Shown here: positions 48,721 through 63,767 of the stretch, piece by piece | How positions within the stretch are numbered: position 1 is the first letter of the stretch | Layout: each line of letters begins with the position of its first letter | Notes under the pieces: generated by a model | Seen by the model: the letters and a program-made list of their open reading frames with translations, nothing else | What the model was told of the DNA's origin: nothing | The model's database searches: none | Source: an uncultured Gemmatimonadota bacterium | GTDB lineage: Bacteria; JAAXHH01 | Direction of reading: 5' to 3' | Assembly (NCBI GenBank): GCA_951812955.1 | Contig: OX638340.1 | Span: 1,888,001-1,952,000, forward strand | DNA: 64,000 nt | Position numbers and translations under genes: made by a program

Positions 48721-50091
48721 CTATCCCGTCGAATCCACGAAGACGCTGTGCGCGCTGCGGTCCTTGCCCGCGTCCTGCGTGTGCTGGTACGACCGATGCT
48801 CGGAAGGTTTGCCAAGTGAGGTGAGGTCAAGCATCTTCTCCGCGGTTCTCGTCGCCACATAGGGCCGCCGGATGTCGGTCGGATTGGCCTGGATGTGCTG
48901 CTTCCAGGCGCCCAGGTCCGTCTTCGCCTGGATCAGCCCCTTGATCATGCCCATGTCGTTCAGCATGGCCACGTCGTCCGCGGGTCCGAGGATGACTGCT
49001 CCGGTGATCGTGGAGCCGTTCCAGATCAGCTTGCGGTAGACCGGCCGGTTGGCGTTGATCACCTCGGTTACGTCGCCGTCCCCCGACCAGTCGCCGAAGC
49101 TCGCGCATTGGAGCCCGCACACGTCGAGGATATTGATCAGCAGGCTGCCGCCATATTCCACGTCCTGGCCGGCCATGTTGGCCCCGGCGATCCGGCCGTG
49201 ATCGACCGCGGTCGGCTGGATGGCGTGCACTGCCTGCCCGCCCGTGGACAGGTCCGGTCCCTCGGCCACGTCGCCCGCGGCGTACACGTTCGCCGCGCTG
49301 GACTGGCAACGGTTGTTGACCAGGACGCCCTGGTTGGTCTCGATACCCGAGCCTTCGAGAAAGCCGATGTTGGCCCTGATCCCGGTGGCCACGATGACCA
49401 CATCCGCCCGGGTGGACGACCCGTCGGAAAGCTGCAGGGTCTTGACGCCGTCGTGGCCGTGATCGATTCCCTGCACGCTTACGCCGGTGTGGACTTCAAC
49501 GCCCTGCGACTCGAGCCAGGAGTTCACGAGGGACGCGCCCTGGGCGTCCAGCATGCGGGGCAGCACCTGCCCTTCGAGCTCGATCACCTTCAGGCGGGCG
49601 CCGCGTTTGTGCATCGCGTTCAGAATGATGAAACCGATGAACCCGGCCCCGATGAAAGCCACCTCGGCATCGCTACCGAGGGCGCTCACGGTCTTTTCCG
49701 CGTCCGCTACGGTCCAGAGATTGTGGACCCCGTCGCCGTCCGCGCCGGGAATGTTCAACTGCTGGGCGGATGACCCGGTGGCGATCAACAGGTTGTCGAA
49801 AGGTACCATGGAGCCGTCGCTGAGCGAGACCATGTTCGCGTAGGGATTCACCTCGGTGACACTGACCCCGAAGCGGGTCTTCACTCCCAGCCTGCCGAAA
49901 TAGTCGTCGTCTCCGGTATTTACCTGTTCGACCGGGATATTCCCTGAGATGTAGTAAGGCAGGGCCATGCGGGAATAGGCCGGCTCATCGGAGATCAGGG
50001 TAATGGACGCGTCCGCATCGTAACCGCGTATCGTTTCGATAGCGTTCATCCCGCCCGGTCCGCCGCCTATAATCACGTGTTCTGTAGCCAT
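48721..50091 (-). CDS. FAD-dependent pyridine-nucleotide-disulfide-type oxidoreductase (AorC-like NAD(P)-binding subunit)
   Basis: 456 aa. IIGGGPGG FAD motif and FIGAGFIGF NAD motif. Last gene of the ferredoxin-AOR-AOR operon. Confidence 0.8.
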   Translation of the reverse strand: MATEHVIIGGGPGGMNAIETIRGYDADASITLISDEPAYSRMALPYYISGNIPVEQVNTGDDDYFGRLGVKTRFGVSVTEVNPYANMVSLSDGSMVPFDNLLIATGSSAQQLNIPGADGDGVHNLWTVADAEKTVSALGSDAEVAFIGAGFIGFIILNAMHKRGARLKVIELEGQVLPRMLDAQGASLVNSWLESQGVEVHTGVSVQGIDHGHDGVKTLQLSDGSSTRADVVIVATGIRANIGFLEGSGIETNQGVLVNNRCQSSAANVYAAGDVAEGPDLSTGGQAVHAIQPTAVDHGRIAGANMAGQDVEYGGSLLINILDVCGLQCASFGDWSGDGDVTEVINANRPVYRKLIWNGSTITGAVILGPADDVAMLNDMGMIKGLIQAKTDLGAWKQHIQANPTDIRRPYVATRTAEKMLDLTSLGKPSEHRSYQHTQDAGKDRSAHSVFVDSTG

Positions 50092-50154: not shown

Positions 50155-51984
50155 TTACGCGAGTCCCAGTTCCATCAGTTTCTCCGTGGTGGGCCGTCCG
50201 TCCGCCGACCAGCCCCTTGCCGCGTAGTAGTCCGGCAGCATGGCGTCGAGATCGACGGTCACCCCCGCGGAAGGACCATCCTTGTGGGCTTCTTCCATCA
50301 ATCGTTTAGGCAGCGTGTCATCGGCCGCGGTGAGGCCCGCCCTGAGATTCCACAGCCGTTCGATATTCCAGATGCGCTCGCCGATGTGCACGAAGTCTTC
50401 CATGGTATAGTCTACGCCGGTGGCTGCGGACAATACGGGGATCAGGTCTTCCAGCGGCGCGCCCGCCGTGGTGAACATGCAGATGCCCGTGGCGTCGTGG
50501 GCCGTGGTCCGGTTTTGTTCCTCGGCCACCCAGACCGACTTGCCCTCGGTGCCGTGGGGATCGTGCTCGCCGGTGGTCTCGATGCCGGGTGTCCAGGCCC
50601 TCAGGTGACAGGCGCCGCGGTTGCAGGTGGCATAGGCCACGCCCATGCCCTGGAATCCCCGTGGATCGTAAGCGGGGAATTCCTGTCCCTTGACGCCCAT
50701 GAAATACTCCGGATGCTCGAATTTCTCGGTCATCCGCTTTGACCCTTCGGCCAGTTCGTCGCCGAAACCCTCCCGGAATCCCGTGGCTTCCGTCATGGCG
50801 ACCAGAGCCTTGCCGTCACCGAACCGGAACGCCATGCCCGTCTGCCCATCGCTCAGCAGGCCCCGCTCATACATTTCCATGGCCGCGGCCAGCGTGGCGC
50901 CCATGGAAATGGGATCCATGCCGAGATCGTTGCACAGGTAGTTCGCCATGACGATGGCGTCCATGTCATCCACGCCGCAGTCGGCCCCGAGCGACCAGAG
51001 GTTCTCGTATTCGGGTCCTTCCCCGGCGACCTTCCAGTTGCGGGGATGCATGTTGACCATGTACTGGTCGGCATTGGGGGAAACCTGGGTCACACGGCCG
51101 CAGGCGATGTTGCAGGCGAAGCATGCCTTGTTGGCGACCAGCCAGTTATCCTTGATGCTCTCCCCGTTGATCGCCTCGGTGCCCTCGAACTGTCCGGCCG
51201 TGAAATTGCGCGTCGGCAGCCCGCCGAAAGCGTTGACGAGGTCGATCGTTGGCGCTGTGCCTAATTCCGTAAGGCCTTGCCGGCCAGGGCTTTCGGCCAG
51301 GTGTTCGTGATAAGGCCAGATGGCGGACATGTAGTCCCGGGGCCGGGCAATCCGGACCCCCTGGTTGCCGCGTACGGCGATCGCCTTGAGGTTCTTGGAC
51401 CCCATGACGGCGCCGACGCCGGAACGGCCCGCGGCACGGTGCTTGTCGTTGACGATGCACGCGAACCGCACCAGGTTCTCGCCCGCCGGTCCGATGCCGG
51501 CCACCCGTAGTTCGGGCATGCCGGTCTCGTCGCGGATGGCGTCCTCGGTTTCCGAGACCACCTTGCCCCACACATTGGAGGCGTCGCGGATCTCGACGCG
51601 GTCATCATCGACAAGGAGGTAGCACGGACGGTCCGACCGGCCTTCCACGATCACCATGTCGTAGCCGGCGAACTTGAGTTCCGGACCCCAGTGGCCGCCT
51701 GAATTGGACGTCGTGATGGCGCCCGTCAGCGGTCCCTTGGTCACCACCATGTACCTGGATCCGCAGGAGGCGTTGGTGCCCGTCAGCGGCCCGGTGGCCA
51801 TGATCAGCTTGTTGTCCGGTCCGAGGGCGTCGACAGAGGGGTCCATCTCCTCGTAGAGGTACCGCGCGGCCAGCCCGCGGCCGCCGATGTATTCCTCGGC
51901 CCAGTCGAGCCTCAGAGGCTCTTTGGTCGCCTTGCCCCGCGAAAGATCCACCCGCAGGATATGGCCGGCCCACCCGTGTGTCAT
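50155..51984 (-). CDS. aldehyde:ferredoxin oxidoreductase family (tungstopterin) enzyme, copy 1
   Basis: Start taken at MTHGWAGHILRVDLS (ORF extends to 52044). AOR N-terminal domain plus cluster-binding C-terminal domains. Confidence 0.9.
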   Translation of the reverse strand: MTHGWAGHILRVDLSRGKATKEPLRLDWAEEYIGGRGLAARYLYEEMDPSVDALGPDNKLIMATGPLTGTNASCGSRYMVVTKGPLTGAITTSNSGGHWGPELKFAGYDMVIVEGRSDRPCYLLVDDDRVEIRDASNVWGKVVSETEDAIRDETGMPELRVAGIGPAGENLVRFACIVNDKHRAAGRSGVGAVMGSKNLKAIAVRGNQGVRIARPRDYMSAIWPYHEHLAESPGRQGLTELGTAPTIDLVNAFGGLPTRNFTAGQFEGTEAINGESIKDNWLVANKACFACNIACGRVTQVSPNADQYMVNMHPRNWKVAGEGPEYENLWSLGADCGVDDMDAIVMANYLCNDLGMDPISMGATLAAAMEMYERGLLSDGQTGMAFRFGDGKALVAMTEATGFREGFGDELAEGSKRMTEKFEHPEYFMGVKGQEFPAYDPRGFQGMGVAYATCNRGACHLRAWTPGIETTGEHDPHGTEGKSVWVAEEQNRTTAHDATGICMFTTAGAPLEDLIPVLSAATGVDYTMEDFVHIGERIWNIERLWNLRAGLTAADDTLPKRLMEEAHKDGPSAGVTVDLDAMLPDYYAARGWSADGRPTTEKLMELGLA

Positions 51985-52070
51985 GAAGAAGGCTCCGTTC
52001 CTCGGCGCTAGCCGGGTGATGCAGGGCCGCGCCCTGTGGATCACCCTTCCGGCTCATGCCGGATGAAGCG

Positions 52071-53918
52071 CTAGGTCAATCCCAGCGACGACAGCTTCTC
52101 CTGGGTGGGTTCGCCTTCCGCGTTCCAACCGCGGAGTTCGTAGTATTCCGGCAGCATCTCGCCGAGCCGGTTTACTTCGCCCTTGGTCGGGCCATCGGGG
52201 ATCGGGTCTTCGAGCAGCCGCTTAGGCAGCGTGTCGTCCTTGCCCGAAAAGCCCGCCCGCTGGTTCCACATGCGTTCGATATTCCAGACGCGTTCTCCGA
52301 CTTCCATCAGTTCGGGTACGGAGTAGGAAATCCCGGTCACCGCCTCGAGCTGGGGCTGTATTTCGTCCAGGCCCACGCCGAAGGTCAGGAACAGGCAGAG
52401 TCCAGACGCGTCCACGGTGCAGGTGGCGTCCTGGAAGATCTTCGTGATCTCTGCTTTACCTTCCGTCACGGCCGGATCCATCTTCTCCGGAATCCCCAGG
52501 ATCTCGGGGGCGACCGTGTAGCTTTTCAAATGGCAGGCGCCTCGGTTCGAGGTCGCGTAACCCAGCCCCATACCCTGGATCGCGCGGGCGTCATAGGCTG
52601 GGAATTCCTGGCCGCGCACGCCCATGAAGTACTCCGGATGATTGAACTTGGCGGTCATGCGCTTCGATCCTTCAGCCAGTTCGTCGCCGAAGCCTTCGCG
52701 ATAGGCCGCCTTCTCCACCATGGCGACCAGCGCTTCGCTGTTACCGAAGTTGAGCGCCATGCCGGTTTGCTCGTCGGTGACTGCGCCGTTTTCGTATAAC
52801 TCCATGGCCGCGGCCAGGGTGGCTCCGAAGGAGATCGGATCCATGCCGAGTACGTTGCAAAGGGCATTGGCCTTGATGAGCGCATCCAGATCGTCGATGC
52901 CGCAATCGGCACCCATGGCCCAGGCGTTCTCGTACTCCGGTCCCTCGACCGCGATCTTCCAGTTGTGCGGCCGCGTGGTCACGGTGAACTTGTCCTGCGC
53001 CTCGCCCGGAAGCTGCGACACCCTCCCGCAGGCTATCGTACAGCCAAAACACGCCTTGTTGGCCACCAGTCGCGTATCGGCAAGGGTCTCCCCGCTGATG
53101 TTGTCCGCGCCTTCGAGCTGGGATACCTGGTGGTTGTTTGTCGGCAGTGCGCCGCTCTCATTGATGATATTGACCAGCACCGCGGTGCCGTATGCGGCCA
53201 GACCCTCACCCGTTACCGGATGCTCGACCAGCTTGCTCTTCATCTCCCACATGGCCGACATGAACTTCTGCGGGTCGGCGATGGGTACGCCCCCGGTACC
53301 GCGTACGGCAATGGCTTTGAGGTTCTTGGAACCCATGACCGCGCCGACGCCGGATCGTCCGGCGGCCCGGTGCCGGTCATTGATGATGGCGGCGAAACGC
53401 ACGAGGTTTTCGCCAGCTGGACCAATACAGGTAACGACCGTGTCGTGCTGTCCCGACTCTTCCCGGACGATGTCGTCCGTCTCCCATACCGTCTTGCCCC
53501 ACAGGTGTTCTGCAGAGCAGATGCGGACGTCGTCATCACAAATGGATATGTAGGACGGAACCGGCGCCCGGCCTTCCACGATCAGCATGTCGTAGCCGGC
53601 AAACTTCAGTTCCGGCCCCCAGTGGCCGCCGGAGTTGGACGTGGTAATGGCGTTCGTCAACGCCCCCTTGGTGATCACCATGTAACGGGAACTCGTCGAT
53701 GCGTTCGTGCCGGTCATGGGACCGGTCGCGAAGATCATCTTGTTGTCCGGGCCCAGCGCTTCCGCCGCCGGGTCCATCTCTTCATAGAGGTACTTGGCCC
53801 CGAGACCGCGCCCGCCAACAAAAGACGTGGCCCAATCCATGTTGAGGGGCTCTTTGGAGATCCGACCGGTGGTCAGATCGACGCGCAGAATCGTGCCTGT
53901 CCATCCGCCGTTGCTCAT
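52071..53918 (-). CDS. aldehyde:ferredoxin oxidoreductase family enzyme, copy 2
   Basis: Start MSNGGWTGTILRVDL overlaps the ferredoxin stop as ATGA. Paralogous to copy 1. Confidence 0.9.
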   Translation of the reverse strand: MSNGGWTGTILRVDLTTGRISKEPLNMDWATSFVGGRGLGAKYLYEEMDPAAEALGPDNKMIFATGPMTGTNASTSSRYMVITKGALTNAITTSNSGGHWGPELKFAGYDMLIVEGRAPVPSYISICDDDVRICSAEHLWGKTVWETDDIVREESGQHDTVVTCIGPAGENLVRFAAIINDRHRAAGRSGVGAVMGSKNLKAIAVRGTGGVPIADPQKFMSAMWEMKSKLVEHPVTGEGLAAYGTAVLVNIINESGALPTNNHQVSQLEGADNISGETLADTRLVANKACFGCTIACGRVSQLPGEAQDKFTVTTRPHNWKIAVEGPEYENAWAMGADCGIDDLDALIKANALCNVLGMDPISFGATLAAAMELYENGAVTDEQTGMALNFGNSEALVAMVEKAAYREGFGDELAEGSKRMTAKFNHPEYFMGVRGQEFPAYDARAIQGMGLGYATSNRGACHLKSYTVAPEILGIPEKMDPAVTEGKAEITKIFQDATCTVDASGLCLFLTFGVGLDEIQPQLEAVTGISYSVPELMEVGERVWNIERMWNQRAGFSGKDDTLPKRLLEDPIPDGPTKGEVNRLGEMLPEYYELRGWNAEGEPTQEKLSSLGLT

Positions 53919-54406
53919 GCCGCGTTCCCTCCCTCGATGGACTGCAGATAGGAAGCATTGACCTTTTCGGCCCAGCCACCCAGCCAGTCGGCCGATTCGC
54001 TCTCGGTGTATTCGATCGCGCCGGTGGGACAGGCGACCGCGCAGGCGGGATTGCCGTCGCACAGATCGCACTTGAAGGCCTTCTGCGTATCCGGATTGTA
54101 GAACACCGTGCCGAAGGGACAGGCAATGGTGCACAACCCGCATCCGACGCAGTTTGCATCGGCCACGACCTTGGCGCCGGTATCCGCGTCGACACTGATG
54201 GCGTTAACGGGGCAGGCCGTCATGCACCAGGCTTCGTCGCACTGAAAACAGGTGTACGGCGCGTAACTGGCCTGCTCATCGAAAATGTTCACGCGAATCA
54301 GCGACCGGGATGGTTGAAACATGCCGGTCTGCACCCAGGAACATGCCAGTTCGCACTGCATGCACCCGGTGCATTTTTCGGGTATAATGCGTAGAGATTT
54401 AGCCAT
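53915..54406 (-). CDS. 4x[4Fe-4S] polyferredoxin (AorA-like electron-transfer subunit)
   Basis: 163 aa with four CxxCxxCxxxCP motifs. Confidence 0.9.
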   Translation of the reverse strand: MAKSLRIIPEKCTGCMQCELACSWVQTGMFQPSRSLIRVNIFDEQASYAPYTCFQCDEAWCMTACPVNAISVDADTGAKVVADANCVGCGLCTIACPFGTVFYNPDTQKAFKCDLCDGNPACAVACPTGAIEYTESESADWLGGWAEKVNASYLQSIEGGNAA

Positions 54407-56797: not shown

Positions 56798-56996
56798 ATG
56801 GGACCCTTCGATCCTTTTCAAACGCCGATTAGATAGTACGGCTCTATCAGCGTACATATCCATCTGCTCCGCGCCTTACCTTTCAAACACATACGCTTGC
56901 CTAATCAGATTCAGATACGAGTAGAACAGAAGACGTATCAGGCTAATTCAAAATTAAACTTTGATTTGGCCTAATTTGATGTTTAACTTGCAGATT

Positions 56997-58181
56997 ATGA
57001 TTAAACGAGACCTTGCCGAGGAGTTGAAAAAGGCGGCACGGCGGTTCCCTTCAATCACGCTTACCGGACCACGGCAAAGTGGGAAGACCACACTGTGTCG
57101 AGCGCTATTTCCCCGTCTGCCCTACGCGACCCTTGAAGCGACGGACGTACGCTCTTTTGCAAGGGATGATCCCCGGGGGTTCCTGGCTCAGTTCGCCGGA
57201 GGCGCGATCATCGACGAGGTACAGCGCGTCCCCGACTTGCTGTCCTATTTGCAGGGCGTTATCGACGAAGAACCGGCGCCCGGCCGTTGGATTCTGACGG
57301 GTTCGCAGAACCTGTCTTTGCTCGAATCGGTCAGCCAATCGCTGGCCGGAAGGACCGCCATATACCATCTGCTTCCCTTGAGCCGATGTGAGATCCTGCG
57401 CTTTGACCGATATCCAGTCAGTCTCGAAGAGACGCTGTTCGCCGGGACGTACCCACGGGTTTTCGATCGCGGACTTGAACCGGCTGACTGGTTCAGGTCC
57501 TATGTCGCCACGTACGTCGAGCGTGACGTGCGCTCCACTAACAACGTAGGGGACCTGACGACGTTCCAACGATTCGTAGAGCTCTGCGCCGGGAGAACGG
57601 CGCAACTTGTCAACTATTCGTCACTGGCCAACGACTGCGGCATATCACAACCGACAGCCAAGGCGTGGCTCAGCATACTCGAGACCAGTTTTCTCGTTTT
57701 CCGCCTGCCGGCATTTCACTCGAATCTGCGAAAGCGACTTGTGAAGATGCCCAAACTGCACTTCTACGATACGGGTCTCGTCTGCTGGCTGCTGGGAATA
57801 CGCACGCCCGATCAACTGCGAAGCCATCCGTTGCGGGGTTCCGTCTTCGAAACCTGGGTTGTCTCGGAAATCACGAAACACAGACTCAACCGCGGCGAAT
57901 CGCCGAGGCTAAGTTTCTATCGCGATCGCAATGGCGTCGAAGTCGATCTCATCATCGAACAACCTTCTCATCGAACACTGGTCGAGGCAAAGTCGGGCGA
58001 AACGGTATCCGCGAATCTGTTCGCCGGAGCGCAGAGGGTCCAGAAACATATCACCCGGCCAACCCGCCCGGATTCCATAGCCGTGGTCTACGGCGGCGAC
58101 CAGTTCCAACATCGAACGCCGGGGTCTCTGGTACCCTGGAGTGGGCTTCACGAAGCGGATTTCTGGAAAACGGGGTCCTGA
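56997..58181 (+). CDS. AAA+ ATPase with C-terminal DUF4143 (PD-(D/E)xK-like) domain
   Basis: Walker A GPRQSGKTTL, Walker B IIDEVQ. C-terminal GVEVDLIIE...VEAK matches the D...ExK nuclease motif. ORF begins at TTG 56961; first ATG is 56997. Confidence 0.8.
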   Translation: MIKRDLAEELKKAARRFPSITLTGPRQSGKTTLCRALFPRLPYATLEATDVRSFARDDPRGFLAQFAGGAIIDEVQRVPDLLSYLQGVIDEEPAPGRWILTGSQNLSLLESVSQSLAGRTAIYHLLPLSRCEILRFDRYPVSLEETLFAGTYPRVFDRGLEPADWFRSYVATYVERDVRSTNNVGDLTTFQRFVELCAGRTAQLVNYSSLANDCGISQPTAKAWLSILETSFLVFRLPAFHSNLRKRLVKMPKLHFYDTGLVCWLLGIRTPDQLRSHPLRGSVFETWVVSEITKHRLNRGESPRLSFYRDRNGVEVDLIIEQPSHRTLVEAKSGETVSANLFAGAQRVQKHITRPTRPDSIAVVYGGDQFQHRTPGSLVPWSGLHEADFWKTGS

Positions 58182-58762
58182 TGAGTCGGCTCGGTTTGCC
58201 GGATCCCAAACCGGTGCTTTACCGCATCATGCACCTGGCGGTCTGCGTCGCCATAGTGGTATCCTTACCTGCCGCCGCCCAGGAAACAGCGGAGAATAAC
58301 ACCATGTTCTGGTCGACGACGCTGAAGATGATCCGTGCGAAGTTCCCCGGGGTCGCCCAGCTTTCCACCGACAGCCTGCAGGTTTGGCTCGAAGCGGCGC
58401 CGGACCGGCCGGGCCGGGAAAGCCCGTTGCTTCTCGACGTGCGGGAAAAGGAAGAATACGAGGTCAGCCACCTGGAAGGCGCCCTGCTCGCCACCTCGGA
58501 AAAAGAAGCACTGCAGGCGCTGGAAGACGTTCCCCCGGACCAGCCCGTCGTGCTGTACTGTTCCGTGGGCTACCGCTCATCGGAAATGGCCGGCTATCTG
58601 GAGAAGAAGGGGTTCAGGAAAGTCTTCAACCTGGAGGGGTCGATCTTCGCCTGGGCGAACGAGGGACGGCCCGTATACCGGGGCGACGATCGCGCGCATG
58701 TCGTCCATCCCTACGACCGCGTATGGGGCAAGCTGCTGAAGAAGGCGCTTCGGGCTAGGTAA
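58181..58762 (+). CDS. secreted rhodanese-domain protein
   Basis: Start overlaps the upstream stop (TGATG). Signal peptide LAVCVAIVVSLPAAAQE. Active-site YCSVGYRS. Confidence 0.75.
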   Translation: MSRLGLPDPKPVLYRIMHLAVCVAIVVSLPAAAQETAENNTMFWSTTLKMIRAKFPGVAQLSTDSLQVWLEAAPDRPGRESPLLLDVREKEEYEVSHLEGALLATSEKEALQALEDVPPDQPVVLYCSVGYRSSEMAGYLEKKGFRKVFNLEGSIFAWANEGRPVYRGDDRAHVVHPYDRVWGKLLKKALRAR

Positions 58763-58984
58763 GCCGAGGCTATTCGATTTTGGCTGTTGCATTGCTCCCT
58801 TTGGCCTAGTCACGAGAAAGGTGGATTGTTGACACGGAAAGGATGGTTCGTTGAAGAGTGGTACATTGTTGAAGCGTAACAGACGAACCGGGGCGGTTTC
58901 CCTAATCGATCGGCTCGGGTTCCCTGAACTGCGCTGACGTGACGAGCCAAGTCGCTAATTCAAAGGGTGATCCGTCTAAACGCG

Positions 58985-59014
58985 TTGACAGGATGGTTCT
59001 CAAATGCTTATAGT
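58985..59014 (+). promoter_or_regulatory. sigma70-like promoter TTGACA-N18-TATAGT upstream of the methyltransferase/endonuclease pair
   Basis: TTGACA at 58985-58990 and TATAGT at 59009-59014. The TTGACA-GGATGGTTC motif is also present ~155 bp upstream (58827). Confidence 0.35.
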
Positions 59015-59150
59015 CCGGTAGAGAACCACTCAGTTGTATCTCGGCCTCATGCGGTCACGTATTGCGCAGTCCAAAACCAGTAAAATGGCCGTGCGAACTG
59101 CCGATCATGGTATGTTACAGCACACATGCGATGACAAGCGAACGATTAAC

Positions 59151-60098
59151 ATGAACCATTCGCCAACCGATACGTCCGCGCCGACAGGTACGCTCGCGCC
59201 AACCAGGCACGACCCTATCGAAGTTTCTCCGATACGGGCGGTGAACGTGGCTTTGGTCCCTCAACGAAGTCCGCTGCGGTACCCCGGTGGAAAGACGTGG
59301 CTGATTCCGCATATCCGGTTCTGGCTCGGCAAGATCGACCCTTCGCCTCGACTTCTGATCGAACCCTTCGCCGGCGGCGGGATCGTCTCCCTGACAGCGG
59401 TCATGGAAGGACTGGCCGAGCGGTGCATCATGGCGGAACTGGACCCCGACGTGGCTGCTTTCTGGCAGGCGGCGCTCAGGTCCGGACCTGAGCTCTGCGA
59501 CAAGGTGCTGCGCTTCCGACCAACGCGGGAAGCCGTCGAAGCCGTGGCGAGTATCAGACCGAGCGACCCGGTAGACCATGGTTTCCGCACGCTCGTGCTC
59601 AACCGAACGCGAAGGGGTGGCATTCTGGCTCCCGGCGCGGCGCTCAGTCGGGCGGGAGAAAACGGGAAGGGCGTCGCGTCCCGCTGGTATCCCGAAACCA
59701 TCGTAGGCCGTTTACGAGAGATCGCGGAACACGCCGACCGCATCGGCTTTCGCGAAACCGACGGCATCGGGTTGTTGGAGGAGTTGCTGGAAGCACGCGC
59801 GGGATCGGCGCTGGAGAACCCTTCCGACCCGGTGGTCTTCGCCGACCCTCCGTACACGGCCGGCGGCAAGCGCGCGGGAAGGCGGCTGTACACCCACAAC
59901 GAGATCGACCATCACCGGTTGTTCGAACTGCTTGCGGACAGCGGTGCGCGTTTCCTGATGACCTACGACAGGTCGTCCGAGATCGTGGCTCTCAGCCGGA
60001 AGCATGGATTCCACGCGGTACAGGTGACCATGAAGAACACCCATCACGCACGGATACCGGAACTGATCATCACCCCCGAACCGGTGTTCGTCAGTTGA
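59151..60098 (+). CDS. Dam-like (D12 class, alpha-group) N6-adenine DNA methyltransferase
   Basis: RYPGGK N-terminal AdoMet motif and DPPY catalytic motif. ORF opens at 59034, so the exact start is uncertain. Confidence 0.8.
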   Translation: MNHSPTDTSAPTGTLAPTRHDPIEVSPIRAVNVALVPQRSPLRYPGGKTWLIPHIRFWLGKIDPSPRLLIEPFAGGGIVSLTAVMEGLAERCIMAELDPDVAAFWQAALRSGPELCDKVLRFRPTREAVEAVASIRPSDPVDHGFRTLVLNRTRRGGILAPGAALSRAGENGKGVASRWYPETIVGRLREIAEHADRIGFRETDGIGLLEELLEARAGSALENPSDPVVFADPPYTAGGKRAGRRLYTHNEIDHHRLFELLADSGARFLMTYDRSSEIVALSRKHGFHAVQVTMKNTHHARIPELIITPEPVFVS

Positions 60099-60973
60099 GT
60101 TCCCGTTACGGCATCGCGGAATGGTACGGGTTGCCATTCCCCTATCTCCCACCTGCTGCCCGCCATCATCTTGCAAAAAAAGCGTTACGGGAAGACCCCA
60201 ATGCTCCCGCGTGTCCGTTTCAAAACGGCCGGCCTCCATGCCGAAAGCGTGGCGGAATATGTTCCCTTGTTCGCTATGAACGGGATTCGGACGGAAGGCT
60301 TGGCTTGCCAAAAGGAAATCCGGTCATCGTTTGTCCGTCCCGATTCGAGGAAGAGCAACTGCTCGTTACCTGGTTGGCCGAGATCGTTGGCTTTGGACCG
60401 GACGAGGCGATGATCGCTCGCGAAGTAGCCTTCATGGAAGGAACCAGCACGGAGAGACCGGCTGGAAAAATCGATCTAGTCGTCGCCAGGGCCTCCAATG
60501 ACGATCTGAAATGGTTTGGACTGGAAATACAAGCCGTCTATTTCTCAGGTCAAGGCATGCCGTCCGAGTTCGCCAACCTACGGGACGACGATCATCGAAG
60601 ACCACCGTTTCCAAACGCGGTCCGTAGACCGGACTGGCGCTCTTCGAGCGCAAAGCGCCTCATGCCGCAGTTGCAAATCAAAGTGCCGACGCTACGCCGA
60701 TGGGGTTCGAAACTCGCCGTGTCGGTAGACCGGCCGTTTTTCGATTCGATTGGTGGTCCCAGTGCGCATCCCAGCCAGGACCTCAACGATGGGGACATCA
60801 TCTGGTTGATCCCGGAGTTGAAGCGGGAAGCCGGTGGTAACTTCAGGCTCACTCGGGGACATTGGGAAGTGCTCACGTTGGAGGATACGACCCGGAAACT
60901 CCTTGCGGCGGAAACGATCCGGCGGGAAGCGTTTGAGCAGGAGCTCCGCAGCAAACTCGAAGCGCTTCGGTGA
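60095..60973 (+). CDS. candidate type II restriction endonuclease (Cys-rich N-terminus, NotI-family-like)
   Basis: TTG start overlapping the methyltransferase stop (TTGA). Cys ladder ACPF...PCRK...GICS...VCPS. Possible D...E-x-Q/K region (KIDLVV...LEIQ). The NotI-family attribution is from memory and needs checking. Confidence 0.5.
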   Translation: MSSRYGIAEWYGLPFPYLPPAARHHLAKKALREDPNAPACPFQNGRPPCRKRGGICSLVRYERDSDGRLGLPKGNPVIVCPSRFEEEQLLVTWLAEIVGFGPDEAMIAREVAFMEGTSTERPAGKIDLVVARASNDDLKWFGLEIQAVYFSGQGMPSEFANLRDDDHRRPPFPNAVRRPDWRSSSAKRLMPQLQIKVPTLRRWGSKLAVSVDRPFFDSIGGPSAHPSQDLNDGDIIWLIPELKREAGGNFRLTRGHWEVLTLEDTTRKLLAAETIRREAFEQELRSKLEALR

Positions 60974-61073
60974 GGCAGCGGACGACACCCGGGATACTGG
61001 GGTTCAAGATCGACGACTCGGTGTTAACCTTATGTCATCGGATGTGTAGTGCACCCCAAAATGGGACAAGTAG

Positions 61074-61748
61074 TTAAGCTACAGTTTTAACACGTGTCAT
61101 CCTCTGCTCGAACTCGACCGGCGGTCTGTAGTCCAGGGCCGAGTGCAAGCGCTTGCGATTGTATAGTTTGTCGATGAAGTAGCCGATGCGTGATCGGGCT
61201 TCTTCCAGGGATTCGTACTCGTAGAGATAGACCTCCTCGTATTTGAGCGTCCTGATGAAGCGCTCTGCCCTGGCGTTGTCATAGGGGTTGCCTTGCCGGC
61301 TCATGCTGATCCGTATGCCAGCGTTCTTGAGCGTGTCTACATAGGCTTTCGAGGCATACTGCACGCTCCGGTCGGAGTGATGCACAAGCCCTTTCTGCGC
61401 TGGTCTGGCGGCCAGGGCGCTGTCGAGGGCGTTCAGGGCCAAGGTGGCATCGAGGGTTCGATCCAAGGCCCAGCCGATGCATCTTCTGCTGCAGGCGTCA
61501 AGGATCACCGCCAGATAGACCCATTCGCGAGCCAGCCTTATGTAGGTGATGTCGGATACCCAGAGCTGGTTGACATTGGTTACGTTCAGTTCCGGGACCA
61601 GGTTGGCGTAAACGGCGCGGTCGTGATTCGAGTCGGTGGTCGCTACGAAGGCTCGGCGCCGCAGGGCAAGCAGGTTGTCCTCGCGCATGAGACGCAGAAC
61701 GCGCTTGTGGTTCACATGGTATCCCATACGCTTTAGCGCGCGGGTCAT
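61074..61748 (-). CDS. IS3-family transposase OrfB (DDE integrase core)
   Basis: 224-aa frame with the rve-domain DDE pattern (...VSDITYI...LDACSRRCIGW...HSDRSVQY...). The N-terminal part lies in the -1 frame upstream. Confidence 0.85.
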   Translation of the reverse strand: MTRALKRMGYHVNHKRVLRLMREDNLLALRRRAFVATTDSNHDRAVYANLVPELNVTNVNQLWVSDITYIRLAREWVYLAVILDACSRRCIGWALDRTLDATLALNALDSALAARPAQKGLVHHSDRSVQYASKAYVDTLKNAGIRISMSRQGNPYDNARAERFIRTLKYEEVYLYEYESLEEARSRIGYFIDKLYNRKRLHSALDYRPPVEFEQRMTRVKTVA

Positions 61749-62064
61749 GGGACGGTAACCGTAGGCGGGTCAGGAAAGGGCGAGCCTGTGGATCTGATCC
61801 CGCAGTGCAAGGTCCGGATCCGTACGACCACGACGACCGCGGTAGTAGCTGGATCGACCGATCGAGAGCGTCCTGCACAGACGCTTGACCACGGCGCGGT
61901 CGGTGGACGCCTTTGATTGAGCGACCAGGCAGATCATGAGCTTCCTCCATTGCCTCGGGCTGAGCGTGGGATCTCCTCGAGCCGACTCAAGACTTTTTTT
62001 AACACATCGTTCTCCATGGTCAGTTGACCGACCTTGCGCTCAAGGGCCTAGGGTCCGGGCCTCG

Positions 62065-62259
62065 TCACTTACCGCCTTGCCATCCATTACCGGGGAAAGC
62101 GCGGTCGCCCTGGCGGCGAAGCTGCTGACGCCACCTGTGGATCAGCGTAGGATGGACCTGGTGTTCTCGGGCCAACTGGCTGATGGATTTGCCCGAATCG
62201 GCTTCCTGGAGAACCTGGAGCTTGAACTCGCGGGTGAACTGACGGCGTTTCAGGGACAT
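62065..62259 (-). CDS. IS3-family transposase OrfA (HTH)
   Basis: MSLKRRQFTREFKLQVLQEADSGKSISQLAREHQVHPTLIHRWRQQ is a typical IS3 OrfA helix-turn-helix. Confidence 0.75.
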   Translation of the reverse strand: MSLKRRQFTREFKLQVLQEADSGKSISQLAREHQVHPTLIHRWRQQLRRQGDRAFPGNGWQGGK

Positions 62260-62328: not shown

Positions 62329-63252
62329 TTACAGAGGAAGTTTGTTGTAGCTGATTCCGAATCCAAACCGCACATCGTAAGAGCTCTGAGTCGGGACGGT
62401 GCTAAGCTCTTCGATATTCGAAGTATCGATCTTAGAGCCGCCCTGCATCGTCGGACCTTGACTTATATGAGCACCAAAGGTGAGCCAAGTAGACTTTCCG
62501 ATCTCCAAACTTGGACCGAAGATATATTCTAGAACCGTTCCCGGTTCGCCTCCGATTTCTGCGAGCGTTCCTAAACTCAAGTTTACATCCCAACCATTAC
62601 CAATCCGCAAAACGTGCGAATTAACAACGGTTCCTGGCATCACTTGGAAATCCGACCAACTTGTGAAGAAACCGACGCTAATAGAGAACGGGGACTCGCA
62701 AACGAACGTGACCAAAGGATACTCATTCTTCTTGGCGGCTTCGTTTTTCTCCCCGTCCTCATTATCTTGCGGGAACAAGTCGAAAACCACCAAGGTCCAC
62801 TCTTCTTTTCGAGATTTGAAGTCGCACTCGATCGACTGTGAGATTTCAGACTTGGTGCCCTTGTGCATCTCAATAGATGATTGAAGGTATCTTTTTAATG
62901 CCGTAATCTGATCGTTCGCTTGACTCCACTTACTTTCTGCTAATTCAATCTCTACAAGAGCACTGCCAGTCTGCGTCAACGCACTGTCAATCTGTGCCAA
63001 CAAAACACTGTCAGGTAATTGCAATGCACCGCCAAGTGCCTCCCTGTTGTTCCTATTTGCCAAGTTCATCAAACGATCCTGAAGGGAAACTTGGCGATCC
63101 TGAAGGGAAGATATCTGCGGCCAGTTTCCCTTCTCAATTTCACCTATGAGTTGACCGCTTCTGTATATCAGTGTGTCGCTTGGAAAATACATATTACTAA
63201 TATCAATGAAATCGCGCAGTTTCTTAATCTGATTAGAGGTTACTTGACGCAA
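62329..63252 (-). CDS. hypothetical protein (coiled-coil N-terminus, beta-rich C-terminus), lower-GC cargo
   Basis: 307-aa ORF in a ~47% GC segment. No recognisable motifs. May be the 3' part of a frameshifted larger gene together with 63240-63767. Confidence 0.4.
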   Translation of the reverse strand: MRQVTSNQIKKLRDFIDISNMYFPSDTLIYRSGQLIGEIEKGNWPQISSLQDRQVSLQDRLMNLANRNNREALGGALQLPDSVLLAQIDSALTQTGSALVEIELAESKWSQANDQITALKRYLQSSIEMHKGTKSEISQSIECDFKSRKEEWTLVVFDLFPQDNEDGEKNEAAKKNEYPLVTFVCESPFSISVGFFTSWSDFQVMPGTVVNSHVLRIGNGWDVNLSLGTLAEIGGEPGTVLEYIFGPSLEIGKSTWLTFGAHISQGPTMQGGSKIDTSNIEELSTVPTQSSYDVRFGFGISYNKLPL

Positions 63253-63767
63253 GCTGTTAGCCTGGTTTTGTGCAACGTCGGTTTCTTAAGCAAAGAGGCG
63301 GTTTCTCTAAATAAAGAATCGATGCCTTCAGGCGGTGTGCCAACGTTGCTTATATTAAACGAGGAATTGACGTTTTGAAACACACTATCAGCCTGGATTT
63401 CATTCGTCATCTCCCATTGGCATAGCTGGCGCAGGTAGTTGAGCGTATTGGGGGCGTCAAGCGCCTCAACCTGACGGCGGATTTCGTATCTATAGCGAAC
63501 TAAGTTAAGATCCACTACTGTGATGGATGCTTTGTAATGAACTTGCACTTCACCATAGGAACCTTGGGGCCTTTGAAGGGAGTAAGTCAAATCTTGTCCG
63601 GCAGCTACCGGCATATCTGATCCGACAAACAACAGCACACCGGCGATGTGGAAAAGAGCATTTAATAGACGATACTTCGTCCGAGATCCCCGTGGTGGTC
63701 CTAAGGAAACGAGCGGTATTCCTGAAATGACGGTTCTCACGTTTCGGTTCTCCGACATCCCTTTCAT
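63240..63767 (-). CDS. hypothetical secreted protein (possible 5' part of a split gene)
   Basis: 175-aa ORF with a signal-like LFHIAGVLLFVGSDMPVAAGQD. Ends 12 nt inside the start of the next ORF, in another frame. Confidence 0.35.
   Translation of the reverse strand: MKGMSENRNVRTVISGIPLVSLGPPRGSRTKYRLLNALFHIAGVLLFVGSDMPVAAGQDLTYSLQRPQGSYGEVQVHYKASITVVDLNLVRYRYEIRRQVEALDAPNTLNYLRQLCQWEMTNEIQADSVFQNVNSSFNISNVGTPPEGIDSLFRETASLLKKPTLHKTRLTACVK

What the first reader, a model, noticed from the sequence alone, without database searches (positions are those of the whole stretch)
59151..60973. Type II R-M candidate: Dam-like m6A methyltransferase with a downstream Cys-ladder endonuclease resembling NotI-family enzymes
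The methyltransferase has RYPGGK and DPPY motifs (D12 class). The downstream 292-aa ORF starts within the methyltransferase stop and has an N-terminal C-P-F...C-R-K...G-I-C-S...V-C-P-S ladder. This is reminiscent of the Cys4 iron-binding module of NotI-family restriction endonucleases, and a D...E-x-Q segment that could be a variant PD-(D/E)xK site. A NotI-like nuclease paired with an adenine (rather than cytosine) methylase would imply a new specificity. A sigma70-like promoter (TTGACA-N18-TATAGT) and a duplicated TTGACA-GGATGGTTC motif upstream may regulate the pair.
Basis: partly seen in the sequence, partly recalled or inferred. Interest (0 to 1): 0.6.

Follow-up and report, generated by a model that had tools for sequence, protein, structure and literature searches.

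The report
NotI-family restriction-modification gene pair
This is an intact two-gene restriction-modification cassette, a Dam-like DNA methyltransferase followed by a NotI-family nuclease, of a type already annotated on plasmids and shared by hundreds of bacterial species, but its target sequence and even the base it methylates remain unknown.

Summary
M (59151-60098) carries RYPGGK, EPFAGGG and DPPY. R (60095-60973) starts at a TTG overlapping M's stop and has four invariant Cys plus D127...E144-x-Q146.

The pairing is not new. The same M-then-R pair is present in 80 of 80 related genome loci examined, out of 546 species genomes that encode an R relative. Most appear to be sponge-symbiont MAGs from about nine phyla. 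Plasmids such as pEST4011 carry a "NotI family restriction endonuclease" beside a "DNA adenine methylase".

The "adenine, therefore new specificity" inference is unsafe:
- The closest characterised relative of M is M.CbeI, a D12-annotated, DPPY-bearing enzyme that makes N4-methylcytosine in GGCC.
- Related NotI-family nucleases in viral contigs pair with C5-cytosine methylases.

Target site and modified base could not be determined; k-mer depletion was uninformative.

The promoter is real and is conserved in the closest relative only.

Verdict: a genuine, ordinary Type II R-M cassette, a new member of a known kind, with an uncharacterised specificity.

The parts
58978..60976 (+). Extent of the R-M cassette as defined by DNA shared with the closest relative (L001, Latescibacterota MAG)
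   Evidence: blastn gives a single 2006-nt match at 87.8% identity, covering window 58978-60976. Neither flank matches L001 or any other locus.
58985..59014 (+). Sigma-70-like promoter TTGACA-N18-TATAGT, about 135 nt upstream of the M start
   Evidence: It matches 11 of 12 consensus positions and is the only hit in 58000-62000. Both hexamers and the spacing are conserved in L001. It was not found upstream of M in the other 79 loci.
58841..58849 (+). First copy of the 9-mer GGATGGTTC; it lies 6 nt after a TTGACA and outside the cassette
   Evidence: This is one of only two copies in the window. It lies outside the L001-homologous DNA. No function is shown.
58991..58999 (+). Second copy of GGATGGTTC, within the promoter spacer
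   Evidence: locates it. In L001 the same position reads GGATCGTAC, so the motif is not conserved.
59151..60098 (+). M gene: alpha-class (D12-type) DNA amino-methyltransferase, 315 aa, with RYPGGK 43-48, EPFAGGG 71-77 and DPPY 232-235
   Evidence: Pfam PF02086 matches at E 8.6e-11. PADLOC matches PD-Lambda-5_B at 9e-42 and MTase_II at 1e-27. The closest solved structure by sequence is M.CbeI 7m6b at E 7e-8. Foldseek with the model (pLDDT 79.5) ranks 7m6b first at 1.8e-13, then E. coli Dam at 7e-11.
60095..60098 (+). TTGA junction: the R start codon TTG overlaps the M stop codon TGA, giving translational coupling
   Evidence: The overlap is read directly from the sequence. An NTGA overlap at the same position occurs in most of 80 loci.
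60095..60973 (+). R gene: NotI-family PD-(D/E)xK restriction endonuclease, 292 aa, with Cys4 (C40, C49, C56, C80) and catalytic D127, E144, Q146
61074..62259 (-). Context: degenerate IS3-family element immediately downstream of the cassette
   Evidence: The ORF at 61074-61748 carries rve, rve_3 and HTH_21 domains. The ORF at 62065-62259 carries HTH_Tnp_1. The reading frames between them are broken.

Best explanation
The region is an intact, self-contained Type IIP restriction-modification cassette of about 2.0 kb (58978-60976).

**Expression.** A sigma-70-type promoter drives a bicistronic M-to-R transcript. M is a Dam-fold (alpha-class) S-adenosylmethionine-dependent amino-methyltransferase that marks the host's own copies of a specific DNA site. 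R starts at a weak TTG codon that overlaps M's stop codon. R is therefore made only by ribosomes that have just finished M. This keeps the nuclease below and behind the methylase, which replaces a controller protein (inferred).

**Nuclease.** R is a NotI-family PD-(D/E)xK enzyme. It has an N-terminal Cys4 metal-binding module and a D127...E144-x-Q146 catalytic centre. By analogy with NotI it probably acts as a homodimer on a palindromic site and cuts unmethylated incoming DNA (inferred).

**Mobility.** The cassette moves by horizontal transfer. The same pair, at 57-94% amino-acid identity, sits in unrelated chromosomal contexts in genomes of about nine phyla. Most of these appear to be sponge symbionts.

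**What is not resolved.** The recognition sequence is unknown, as is whether M makes N6-methyladenine or N4-methylcytosine. I rate the two bases about equally likely.
For: **Shown: identity of R.**
- R is in Pfam PF12183 at 143 bits.
- The Cys4 and E-x-Q residues are invariant in the wider family and D127 is nearly so. They match what is described for NotI (PMC4081073).

**Shown: identity of M.**
- M matches PF02086 and type II MTase models.
- M has a Dam/M.CbeI fold with all motifs intact.

**Shown: linkage of the two genes.**
- M lies immediately upstream of R in 80/80 loci.
- An NTGA overlap occurs in most of them.
- M and R identities to the window pair correlate at r = 0.81 over 77 loci.
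- R is intact in 77/80 loci and M in 77/80.

**Shown: cassette boundaries and distribution.**
- Boundaries come from the L001 comparison, with unrelated flanks.
- 546 species genomes carry an R relative.
- The promoter is conserved in L001.

**From the literature.** R-M systems are enriched in sponge symbionts and laterally transferred among them (PMC8163846).
Against: - No activity data exist for this clade in anything I could search.
- Foldseek against the PDB gave no significant hit.
- No Shine-Dalgarno sequence is evident before the TTG start.
- The promoter is conserved in only one other locus.
- The sponge origin of the related MAGs is inferred from their names and taxa, not from sample metadata.
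- Some relatives carry broken R (L001, L033, L048) or broken M (L020, L033, L071), so decay does occur.
Confidence: 0.85

Rival explanations
1. M is a true N6-adenine methylase, so the NotI-like nuclease recognises an A/T-containing site that differs from GCGGCCGC. This would be a new specificity within the NotI family.
For: - M falls in Pfam D12 (PF02086) and has DPPY, which is typical of N6-adenine enzymes.
- Its homologues are named 'DNA adenine methylase' by NCBI.
- The M model aligns to E. coli Dam almost as well as to M.CbeI (E 7e-11 against 2e-13).
- R is only about 17% identical to NotI, so a different site is quite plausible.
- Most characterised D12 enzymes are m6A enzymes (established knowledge).
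Against: - The nearest characterised relative, M.CbeI, carries the same annotation and the same motifs but makes m4C in GGCC. Anabaena DmtB, which those authors report as 57% identical to M.CbeI, also makes m4C in GGCC.
- M fails the Dam subfamily cut-off, scoring 32 against 114.85 bits.
- The Pfam D12 match covers only 66 of 253 model positions.
- Nucleases of the same family pair with C5-cytosine methylases, so the family's sites contain C.
Confidence: 0.4
2. M is an alpha-class N4-cytosine methylase like M.CbeI and DmtB. The pair recognises a G+C-rich, possibly GGCC-core, palindrome related to NotI's GCGGCCGC. It would then be a conventional NotI-type system with a mis-named methylase.
For: - By sequence, M.CbeI is the best solved-structure match for M: E 7e-8, against 7.5e-4 for DpnM and 0.4 or worse for Dam. 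It is also the best match by fold.
- M aligns over its full length with the Nostoc plasmid M.CbeI homologue that partners a HaeIII-family nuclease (27% identity, E 8e-27).
- NotI's own site contains no adenine, so its cognate methylase must modify cytosine (established knowledge).
- The D12-like and C5-cytosine partners are interleaved among related nucleases. pEST4011 R is 49-51% identical to R proteins with m5C partners, but only 39% identical to the window R.
Against: - M is only 27% identical to the m4C enzymes, and M.CbeI-like enzymes are themselves close to m6A enzymes (DpnM at E 2e-16). The modified base can evidently switch within this family.
- GCGGCCGC, CGGCCG and GGCC are not specifically depleted in host DNA. 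GCGGCCGC has an observed/expected ratio of 1.0-1.2 under order-5 and order-6 models.
- I could not establish which family M.NotI itself belongs to.
Confidence: 0.4
3. The pair is not a classical R-M system. It could be a solitary or regulatory methylase with a decaying or domesticated nuclease. It could also be a different defence type, such as PD-lambda-5-like RM+Abi or a methylation-dependent nuclease.
For: - M's best PADLOC hit is PD-Lambda-5_B at E 9e-42.
- Some relatives have stop codons in R or frameshifts in M.
- R has no PADLOC or NCBIfam hit.
Against: - R has no similarity to any PD-Lambda-5 model.
- R keeps every family-conserved residue and is intact in 77/80 loci.
- The strict M-R linkage with start/stop overlap across phyla is the signature of a mutually dependent toxin-antidote pair. 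A methylation-dependent nuclease could not coexist with its own methylase.
Confidence: 0.07

Closest known systems
NotI restriction endonuclease (Nocardia otitidiscaviarum; PDB 3bvq/3c25; Pfam PF12183)
   Same: - Same Pfam family (E 1.3e-41).
- An N-terminal four-cysteine module.
- A PD...ExQ catalytic motif in which Gln replaces the usual Lys (for NotI; for this protein).
   Different: - 292 aa here; NotI is larger (342 residues in the solved chain 3bvq_A).
- Only about 17% identity in the structural alignment, and no detectable direct sequence match.
- This protein belongs to a separate, tightly conserved subgroup with the signature RRPDWRSSSAKRLMPQLQIKVPTLRRWG.
- Its recognition site is unknown and need not be GCGGCCGC.
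Plasmid-borne 'NotI family restriction endonuclease' plus 'DNA adenine methylase' pairs (pEST4011 NC_005793, Variovorax and Burkholderia IncP-1 plasmids, Aeromonas small plasmids, Thermus brockianus pTbrSNM4-1c)
   Same: Both protein families are the same: R is 31-39% identical and M 42-45% identical. The genes are adjacent and co-oriented, and they sit on mobile DNA.
   Different: - The gene order is R then M on the plasmids, but M then R with overlapping codons here.
- The plasmid proteins are longer (355 and 342 aa in pEST4011).
- These pairs are annotated by homology only. I found no characterisation of them.
M.CbeI (Caldicellulosiruptor bescii, PDB 7m6b) and DmtB (Anabaena): alpha-class N4-cytosine methyltransferases for GGCC
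   Same: - M.CbeI is the best solved-structure match for M by sequence (E 7e-8) and by fold (E 1.8e-13).
- The YPGGK and DPPY motifs are shared.
- M.CbeI was likewise annotated as a D12 adenine methylase.
   Different: - Only about 22-27% identity.
- Their partner nuclease is of the HaeIII family (shown for the Nostoc plasmid homologue; CbeI itself is described as cutting GGCC like HaeIII), not NotI-family.
- M here has extra segments, for example the low-confidence loop at residues 161-176 with the conserved motif GENGKGVASRWYPET.
E. coli Dam / DpnM / T4 Dam (GATC N6-adenine methyltransferases, D12 class)
   Same: Same alpha-class fold and motif order (Foldseek E 7e-11 to 1e-7). The DPPY catalytic motif is shared.
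   Different: - M fails the Dam subfamily and equivalog cut-offs (32 against 114.85 bits; 15.6 against 441 bits).
- Sequence similarity to Dam is insignificant (E about 0.4).
- Dam is a solitary methylase, whereas this M is strictly linked to a nuclease.
PD-lambda-5 (E. coli prophage defence system, Vassallo et al. 2022, PMC9519451)
   Same: The methylase component matches M strongly (PD-Lambda-5_B, E 9.2e-42). PD-lambda-5 is described as a compacted RM+Abi system.
   Different: R matches none of the PADLOC models, so the effector component is unrelated.

Membership tests
NotI restriction endonuclease family (Pfam PF12183) | Match to the family profile above the curated gathering score | tested here: met
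   143 bits against a cut-off of 22, E 1.3e-41, covering model positions 14-233 of 238.
NotI restriction endonuclease family (Pfam PF12183) | NotI three-dimensional fold | tested here: met
NotI restriction endonuclease family (Pfam PF12183) | Four-cysteine structural metal site (Fe-Cys4 in NotI) | tested here: inconclusive
   C40, C49, C56 and C80 are invariant in 34 close and 60 diverse relatives. NotI's Cys4 site is described in PMC4081073 and PMC4176176. Residue-by-residue equivalence to NotI and actual metal binding could not be checked.
NotI restriction endonuclease family (Pfam PF12183) | PD...(D/E)xQ catalytic motif, with Gln in place of Lys | tested here: met
   E144 and Q146 are invariant across the family and D127 is nearly so. 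The Gln replacement in NotI and BglII is stated in PMC4081073.
NotI restriction endonuclease family (Pfam PF12183) | Direct sequence similarity to the NotI protein itself | tested here: not met
   There was no NotI hit at E<=10 using the single sequence or two family profiles against PDB sequences. This protein is a family member through the Pfam profile and the fold, not a close NotI homologue.
NotI restriction endonuclease family (Pfam PF12183) | Recognition of GCGGCCGC (needed to call it an isoschizomer, not needed for family membership) | not testable with these tools
   k-mer depletion in 0.75 Mb of host DNA gave no specific signal. An enzyme assay or REBASE is needed.
D12 class / alpha-class DNA amino-methyltransferases (Pfam PF02086) | Profile match above the gathering score | tested here: met
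   42.5 bits against a cut-off of 22, but the best stretch covers only model positions 1-66 of 253.
D12 class / alpha-class DNA amino-methyltransferases (Pfam PF02086) | Alpha-class motif order: N-terminal xxGGK, then FxGxG (AdoMet binding), then the target-recognition region, then (D/N/S)PP(Y/F) | tested here: met
   RYPGGK lies at 43-48, EPFAGGG at 71-77 and DPPY at 232-235. All are conserved in the alignments. The fold matches M.CbeI, Dam, DpnM and T4 Dam.
Dam family (GATC N6-adenine methylases; TIGR00571, NF008152) | Score above the curated subfamily or equivalog cut-off | tested here: not met
   TIGR00571 scores 32 against 114.85 bits and NF008152 scores 15.6 against 441 bits. This is not a Dam orthologue.
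N6-adenine (as opposed to N4-cytosine) methyltransferase | The modified base is adenine | not testable with these tools
   DPPY does not discriminate, because M.CbeI has DPPY and makes m4C. M.CbeI is the closest characterised relative.
Type II (IIP) restriction-modification system | Separate, adjacent methyltransferase and endonuclease genes that are inherited together | tested here: met
   The genes are adjacent and co-oriented in 80/80 loci. A start/stop overlap occurs in most. Divergence of M and R is correlated at r = 0.81.
Type II (IIP) restriction-modification system | Site-specific cleavage that is blocked by the cognate methylation | not testable with these tools
   This requires cloning and an enzyme assay.
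PD-lambda-5 defence system | Both components (A and B) present | tested here: not met
   The B component matches M (E 9.2e-42), but R matches no PADLOC model at E<=0.01.

The most novel reading that the evidence does not exclude
The cassette may encode a specificity not yet characterised in the NotI family. In this reading it is protected by an alpha-class DPPY methylase that makes N4-methylcytosine rather than N6-methyladenine. Because near-identical copies sit in hundreds of co-resident symbiont species from about nine phyla, it would give the sponge microbiome a shared methylation 'password'. That password would permit DNA exchange among members while restricting DNA and phages from outside.
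Probability: 0.15. Interest if true: 0.6.

Novelty: new member of a known kind. Interest (0 to 1): 0.3.

Why it matters
**Practical value.** The clade is a ready source of a possibly new rare-cutting or G+C-specific enzyme. The proteins are compact (292 aa) and highly conserved.

**Annotation.** The case is a caution for automatic naming. 'DNA adenine methylase' is assigned to a branch of the D12 family whose only characterised members make N4-methylcytosine. Methylome predictions for these genomes may therefore be wrong.

**Ecology.** One M-R cassette is shared at 57-94% identity among genomes of about nine phyla. This is a concrete, traceable example of the lateral spread of defence genes reported for sponge symbionts. 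It could be used to test whether shared R-M systems shape gene flow inside a host-associated community.

None of this changes the basic verdict that the locus is an ordinary Type II R-M system.

Tried and rejected

2. **Recognition site from palindrome avoidance.** I computed observed/expected counts for all 4-, 6- and 8-mer palindromes in 0.75 Mb of window plus host flanks.
   - Almost every 6-mer palindrome is depleted, which is expected for genomes rich in R-M systems.
   - No single site stands out.
   - GCGGCCGC is at 0.66 under an order-3 model but at 1.0-1.2 under order-5 and order-6 models.
   - The result is uninformative.

3. **Site from the C5-cytosine methylases that partner related nucleases.** Their best PDB matches are DNMT1 and M.HaeIII catalytic domains, with no decisive similarity in the target-recognition domain.

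4. **Literature on M.NotI and on m4C at GCGGCCGC.** Nothing usable was found, and the NotI structure paper is not held.

5. **A controller (C) protein, an RNA element or a tRNA integration site.**
   - There is no ORF of 50 aa or more in the 388-nt upstream spacer, apart from one overlapping the end of the rhodanese gene.
   - There are no Rfam hits and no tRNAs.

6. **The inverted repeat TGGTTCTC...GAGAACCA around the -10 hexamer.** I considered it as an operator. Neither arm is conserved in L001.

7. **Terminal repeats for the cassette or the neighbouring IS3 element.** Only weak pairs were found, for example 59122-59136 with 61033-47 at 15 nt. These are probably chance.

8. **Phage carriage of this clade.** Only 8 distant relatives (32-43% identity) were found in 2.9 million viral contigs, and none belong to the sponge clade.

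9. **Exact look-up of the window's R protein.** It is in the protein collection, on a 3.8-Mb contig, but no encoding contig is on record.
Full report
**1. What is in the sequence**

Two co-oriented ORFs occupy 59151-60973 on the + strand.

*The M ORF.*
- It runs from ATG 59151 to TGA 60098 and encodes 315 aa.
- It carries RYPGGK (43-48), EPFAGGG (71-77) and DPPY (232-235).
- The longest possible ORF begins at TTG 59034, and the public gene call P0137 uses that start (354 aa).
- In the closest relative, L001, the stretch between the two candidate starts has frame-breaking indels and lower identity. L001's own ORF begins at the equivalent ATG.
- I therefore keep 59151 as the start.

*The R ORF.*
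- It starts at TTG 60095 and ends at 60973, encoding 292 aa.
- TTG-A overlaps M's TGA by four bases.
- Its N-terminal 70 residues, which some public gene calls omit (222-aa versions), are strongly conserved and contain three of the four cysteines.

*The promoter.* TTGACA-N18-TATAGT lies at 58985-59014 and matches 11 of 12 consensus positions.

**2. Identity of the nuclease**

- R matches Pfam PF12183 (NotI) at E 1.3e-41, scoring 143 bits against a cut-off of 22.
- Neither R nor two family profiles detect the NotI chain by sequence, and Foldseek finds nothing significant.
- An AlphaFold model built on 34 homologues has pLDDT 83.6 and pTM 0.82.
- C40, C49, C56, C80, E144 and Q146 are invariant, and D127 nearly so, in 60 diverse relatives drawn from 701 family representatives.
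- A review of Type II enzymes states that NotI has an Fe-Cys4 structural motif. It also states that the catalytic Lys is replaced by Gln, as in BglII (PMC4081073).
- R belongs to a distinct, tightly conserved subgroup with the signature RRPDWRSSSAKRLMPQLQIKVPTLRRWG. It is far from NotI proper, at about 17% identity.

**3. Identity of the methyltransferase**

- M passes the Pfam D12 threshold, but only through its N-terminal part.
- It fails the Dam subfamily cut-offs.
- It matches PADLOC type II methylase models and PD-Lambda-5_B at E 9e-42.
- Among solved structures, the best sequence match is 7m6b at E 7e-8. DpnM scores 7.5e-4 and Dam about 0.4.
- The M model (pLDDT 79.5) also ranks 7m6b first by Foldseek at 1.8e-13. 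Dam follows at 7e-11, then DpnM and T4 Dam.
- 7m6b is M.CbeI. It was annotated as a D12 adenine methylase and has DPPY, yet experiments show it makes N4-methylcytosine in GGCC. The same is true of Anabaena DmtB (PMC3425538).
- A Nostoc plasmid homologue of M is 27% identical over the full length (E 8e-27). It is a close M.CbeI relative (E 1.5e-93) and lies beside a HaeIII-family (GGCC) nuclease.
- The RYPGGK and DPPY motifs therefore do not establish adenine as the target base.

**4. The pair is a conserved unit**

- A scan of one genome per species found 546 genomes encoding an R relative.
- In all 80 loci fetched, an M homologue (57-87% identity) lies immediately upstream of R (59-94% identity).
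- Most junctions are ATGA, GTGA or TTGA overlaps.
- The identities of M and R to the window pair correlate at r = 0.81.
- R is intact in 77/80 loci and M in 77/80.
- DNA similarity with the nearest relative (L001, Latescibacterota) covers only 58978-60976. It starts just before the promoter and ends 3 nt after R's stop codon, and the flanks are unrelated. This defines a cassette of about 2 kb.
- In the window the cassette sits between a rhodanese gene and a degenerate IS3 element, close to a DUF4143 ATPase.
- Its G+C content (59.6%) equals that of the window.

**5. Distribution**

- The 80 best loci come from Latescibacterota, Chloroflexota (Dehalococcoidia, Anaerolineae, Caldilineaceae), Acidimicrobiia (including Ca. 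Poriferisocius), Acidobacteriota (Bryobacterales, Thermoanaerobaculia), Binatia, Alpha- and Gammaproteobacteria, Rhodothermales and Thermodesulfobacteriota.
- This is the typical community of high-microbial-abundance sponges. That reading is my inference from names and taxa; I did not check sample metadata.
- Protein identity of 60-75% across phyla implies lateral transfer.
- This fits the report that R-M genes are enriched in sponge symbionts and laterally transferred among them (PMC8163846).
- The whole clade collapses to essentially one cluster at 50% identity.
- It was not found on viral contigs.

**6. The architecture is not new**

- Plasmids pEST4011, several Variovorax and Burkholderia IncP-1 plasmids, small Aeromonas plasmids and a Thermus brockianus plasmid carry genes annotated 'NotI family restriction endonuclease' and 'DNA adenine methylase'.
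- These are 31-39% (R) and 42-45% (M) identical to the window pair, and the gene order there is R then M.
- Three of eight viral-contig relatives also have this methylase next to R.
- The other five have a C5-cytosine methylase (PF00145) directly adjacent instead.
- In an identity matrix, the pEST4011-type R (D12-like partner) is 49-51% identical to two R proteins with m5C partners. It is only 39% identical to the window R.
- Methylase partners have therefore been exchanged among related nucleases, and the sites recognised by this family must contain cytosine.

**7. Mechanism (inferred unless stated)**

- The promoter drives M and R as one transcript.
- R's weak TTG start sits inside M's stop codon (shown). 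This couples R translation to completed M translation, which favours methylation before restriction when the cassette enters a new cell. No controller protein is encoded.
- R probably dimerises on a palindromic site and cleaves with the D127/E144/Q146 centre. The Cys4 module would contribute to DNA binding, as in NotI.
- The site and the modified base are unresolved.
- Attempts to infer the site from palindrome depletion failed, because nearly all palindromes are depleted in these genomes and none stands out.
- I rate m6A and m4C as about equally likely.

**8. Upstream elements**

- The promoter hexamers and their spacing are conserved in L001, but they are not found in the other 79 loci. This points to a lineage-specific expression signal carried with the cassette.
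- GGATGGTTC occurs only twice in the window, 150 nt apart.
- The first copy is outside the cassette, the second is altered in L001, and the motif is absent from all 93 fetched loci.
- Its proximity suggests a local duplication rather than chance. A regulatory role has no support.

**9. Verdict**

- This is a real, apparently intact Type II R-M cassette.
- The pairing is common and already annotated elsewhere, and the step from 'Dam-like motifs' to 'adenine methylation, hence new specificity' does not hold.
- It is a new member of a known kind.
- The points of moderate interest are the uncharacterised specificity of a very widespread clade, the likely mis-naming of this methylase branch, and the cross-phylum spread.

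Noticed in passing
window 56961-58181 (+): A 406-aa AAA_14/DUF4143 ATPase lies about 1 kb upstream of the cassette. It matches the PADLOC candidate defence family PDC-S01 (E 4.7e-108). Together with the R-M pair and the IS3 remnant, it suggests a small defence and mobile-DNA patch within an otherwise metabolic neighbourhood.
   Followed up: partly
window 61074-62259 (-): A degenerate IS3-family insertion sequence lies directly downstream of R. It has an integrase-core ORF (61074-61748) and a short HTH_Tnp_1 ORF (62065-62259), with broken frames between them. No clear terminal inverted repeats were found.
   Followed up: partly
window 62329-63767 (-): G+C drops to 45-46% between 62500 and 63500, against about 58% around it. 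Two overlapping ORFs (307 aa and 175 aa) lie here and have no Pfam or PADLOC match. They are probably foreign DNA of unknown function.
   Followed up: partly
window 58763-59150: The 388-nt spacer upstream of M has low G+C (51%). It holds short direct repeats (GATTGTTGACA and CATTGTTGAAG at 58815-58879; GGATGGTTC at 58841 and 58991). An 8-bp inverted repeat, TGGTTCTC...GAGAACCA, brackets the -10 hexamer. None of these is conserved in related loci.
   Followed up: partly
L001 4001-4879; L033; L048; L020; L071: Some relatives of the cassette are decaying. R has an in-frame stop in L001 (the closest relative, 94% identical), L033 and L048. M is frameshifted in L020, L033 and L071.
   Followed up: partly
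L087-L091 (IMG/VR viral contigs): NotI-family nucleases 32-37% identical to the window R lie next to C5-cytosine methyltransferases instead of the D12-like methylase. This shows that methylase partners are exchanged within the nuclease family.
   Followed up: yes
L085 1642-3337 (Nostoc sp. TCL26-01 plasmid): A gene annotated 'DNA adenine methylase' partners a HaeIII-family (GGCC) nuclease and is a close M.CbeI homologue (E 1.5e-93). It is very likely an N4-cytosine methylase that has been mis-named by automatic annotation.
   Followed up: yes
window 50155-54143 (-): Two tandem aldehyde:ferredoxin oxidoreductase genes (629 and 690 aa) lie here, followed by a pyridine-nucleotide-disulphide oxidoreductase at 48721-50091. 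These are ordinary metabolic context.
   Followed up: no
L094 1390-2670 (-): In another cassette-bearing contig (P0010), an SMC_N/AAA_15/AAA_21 ATPase lies 1.4 kb upstream of M. This hints that the cassette sometimes sits among other defence-type genes.
   Followed up: no
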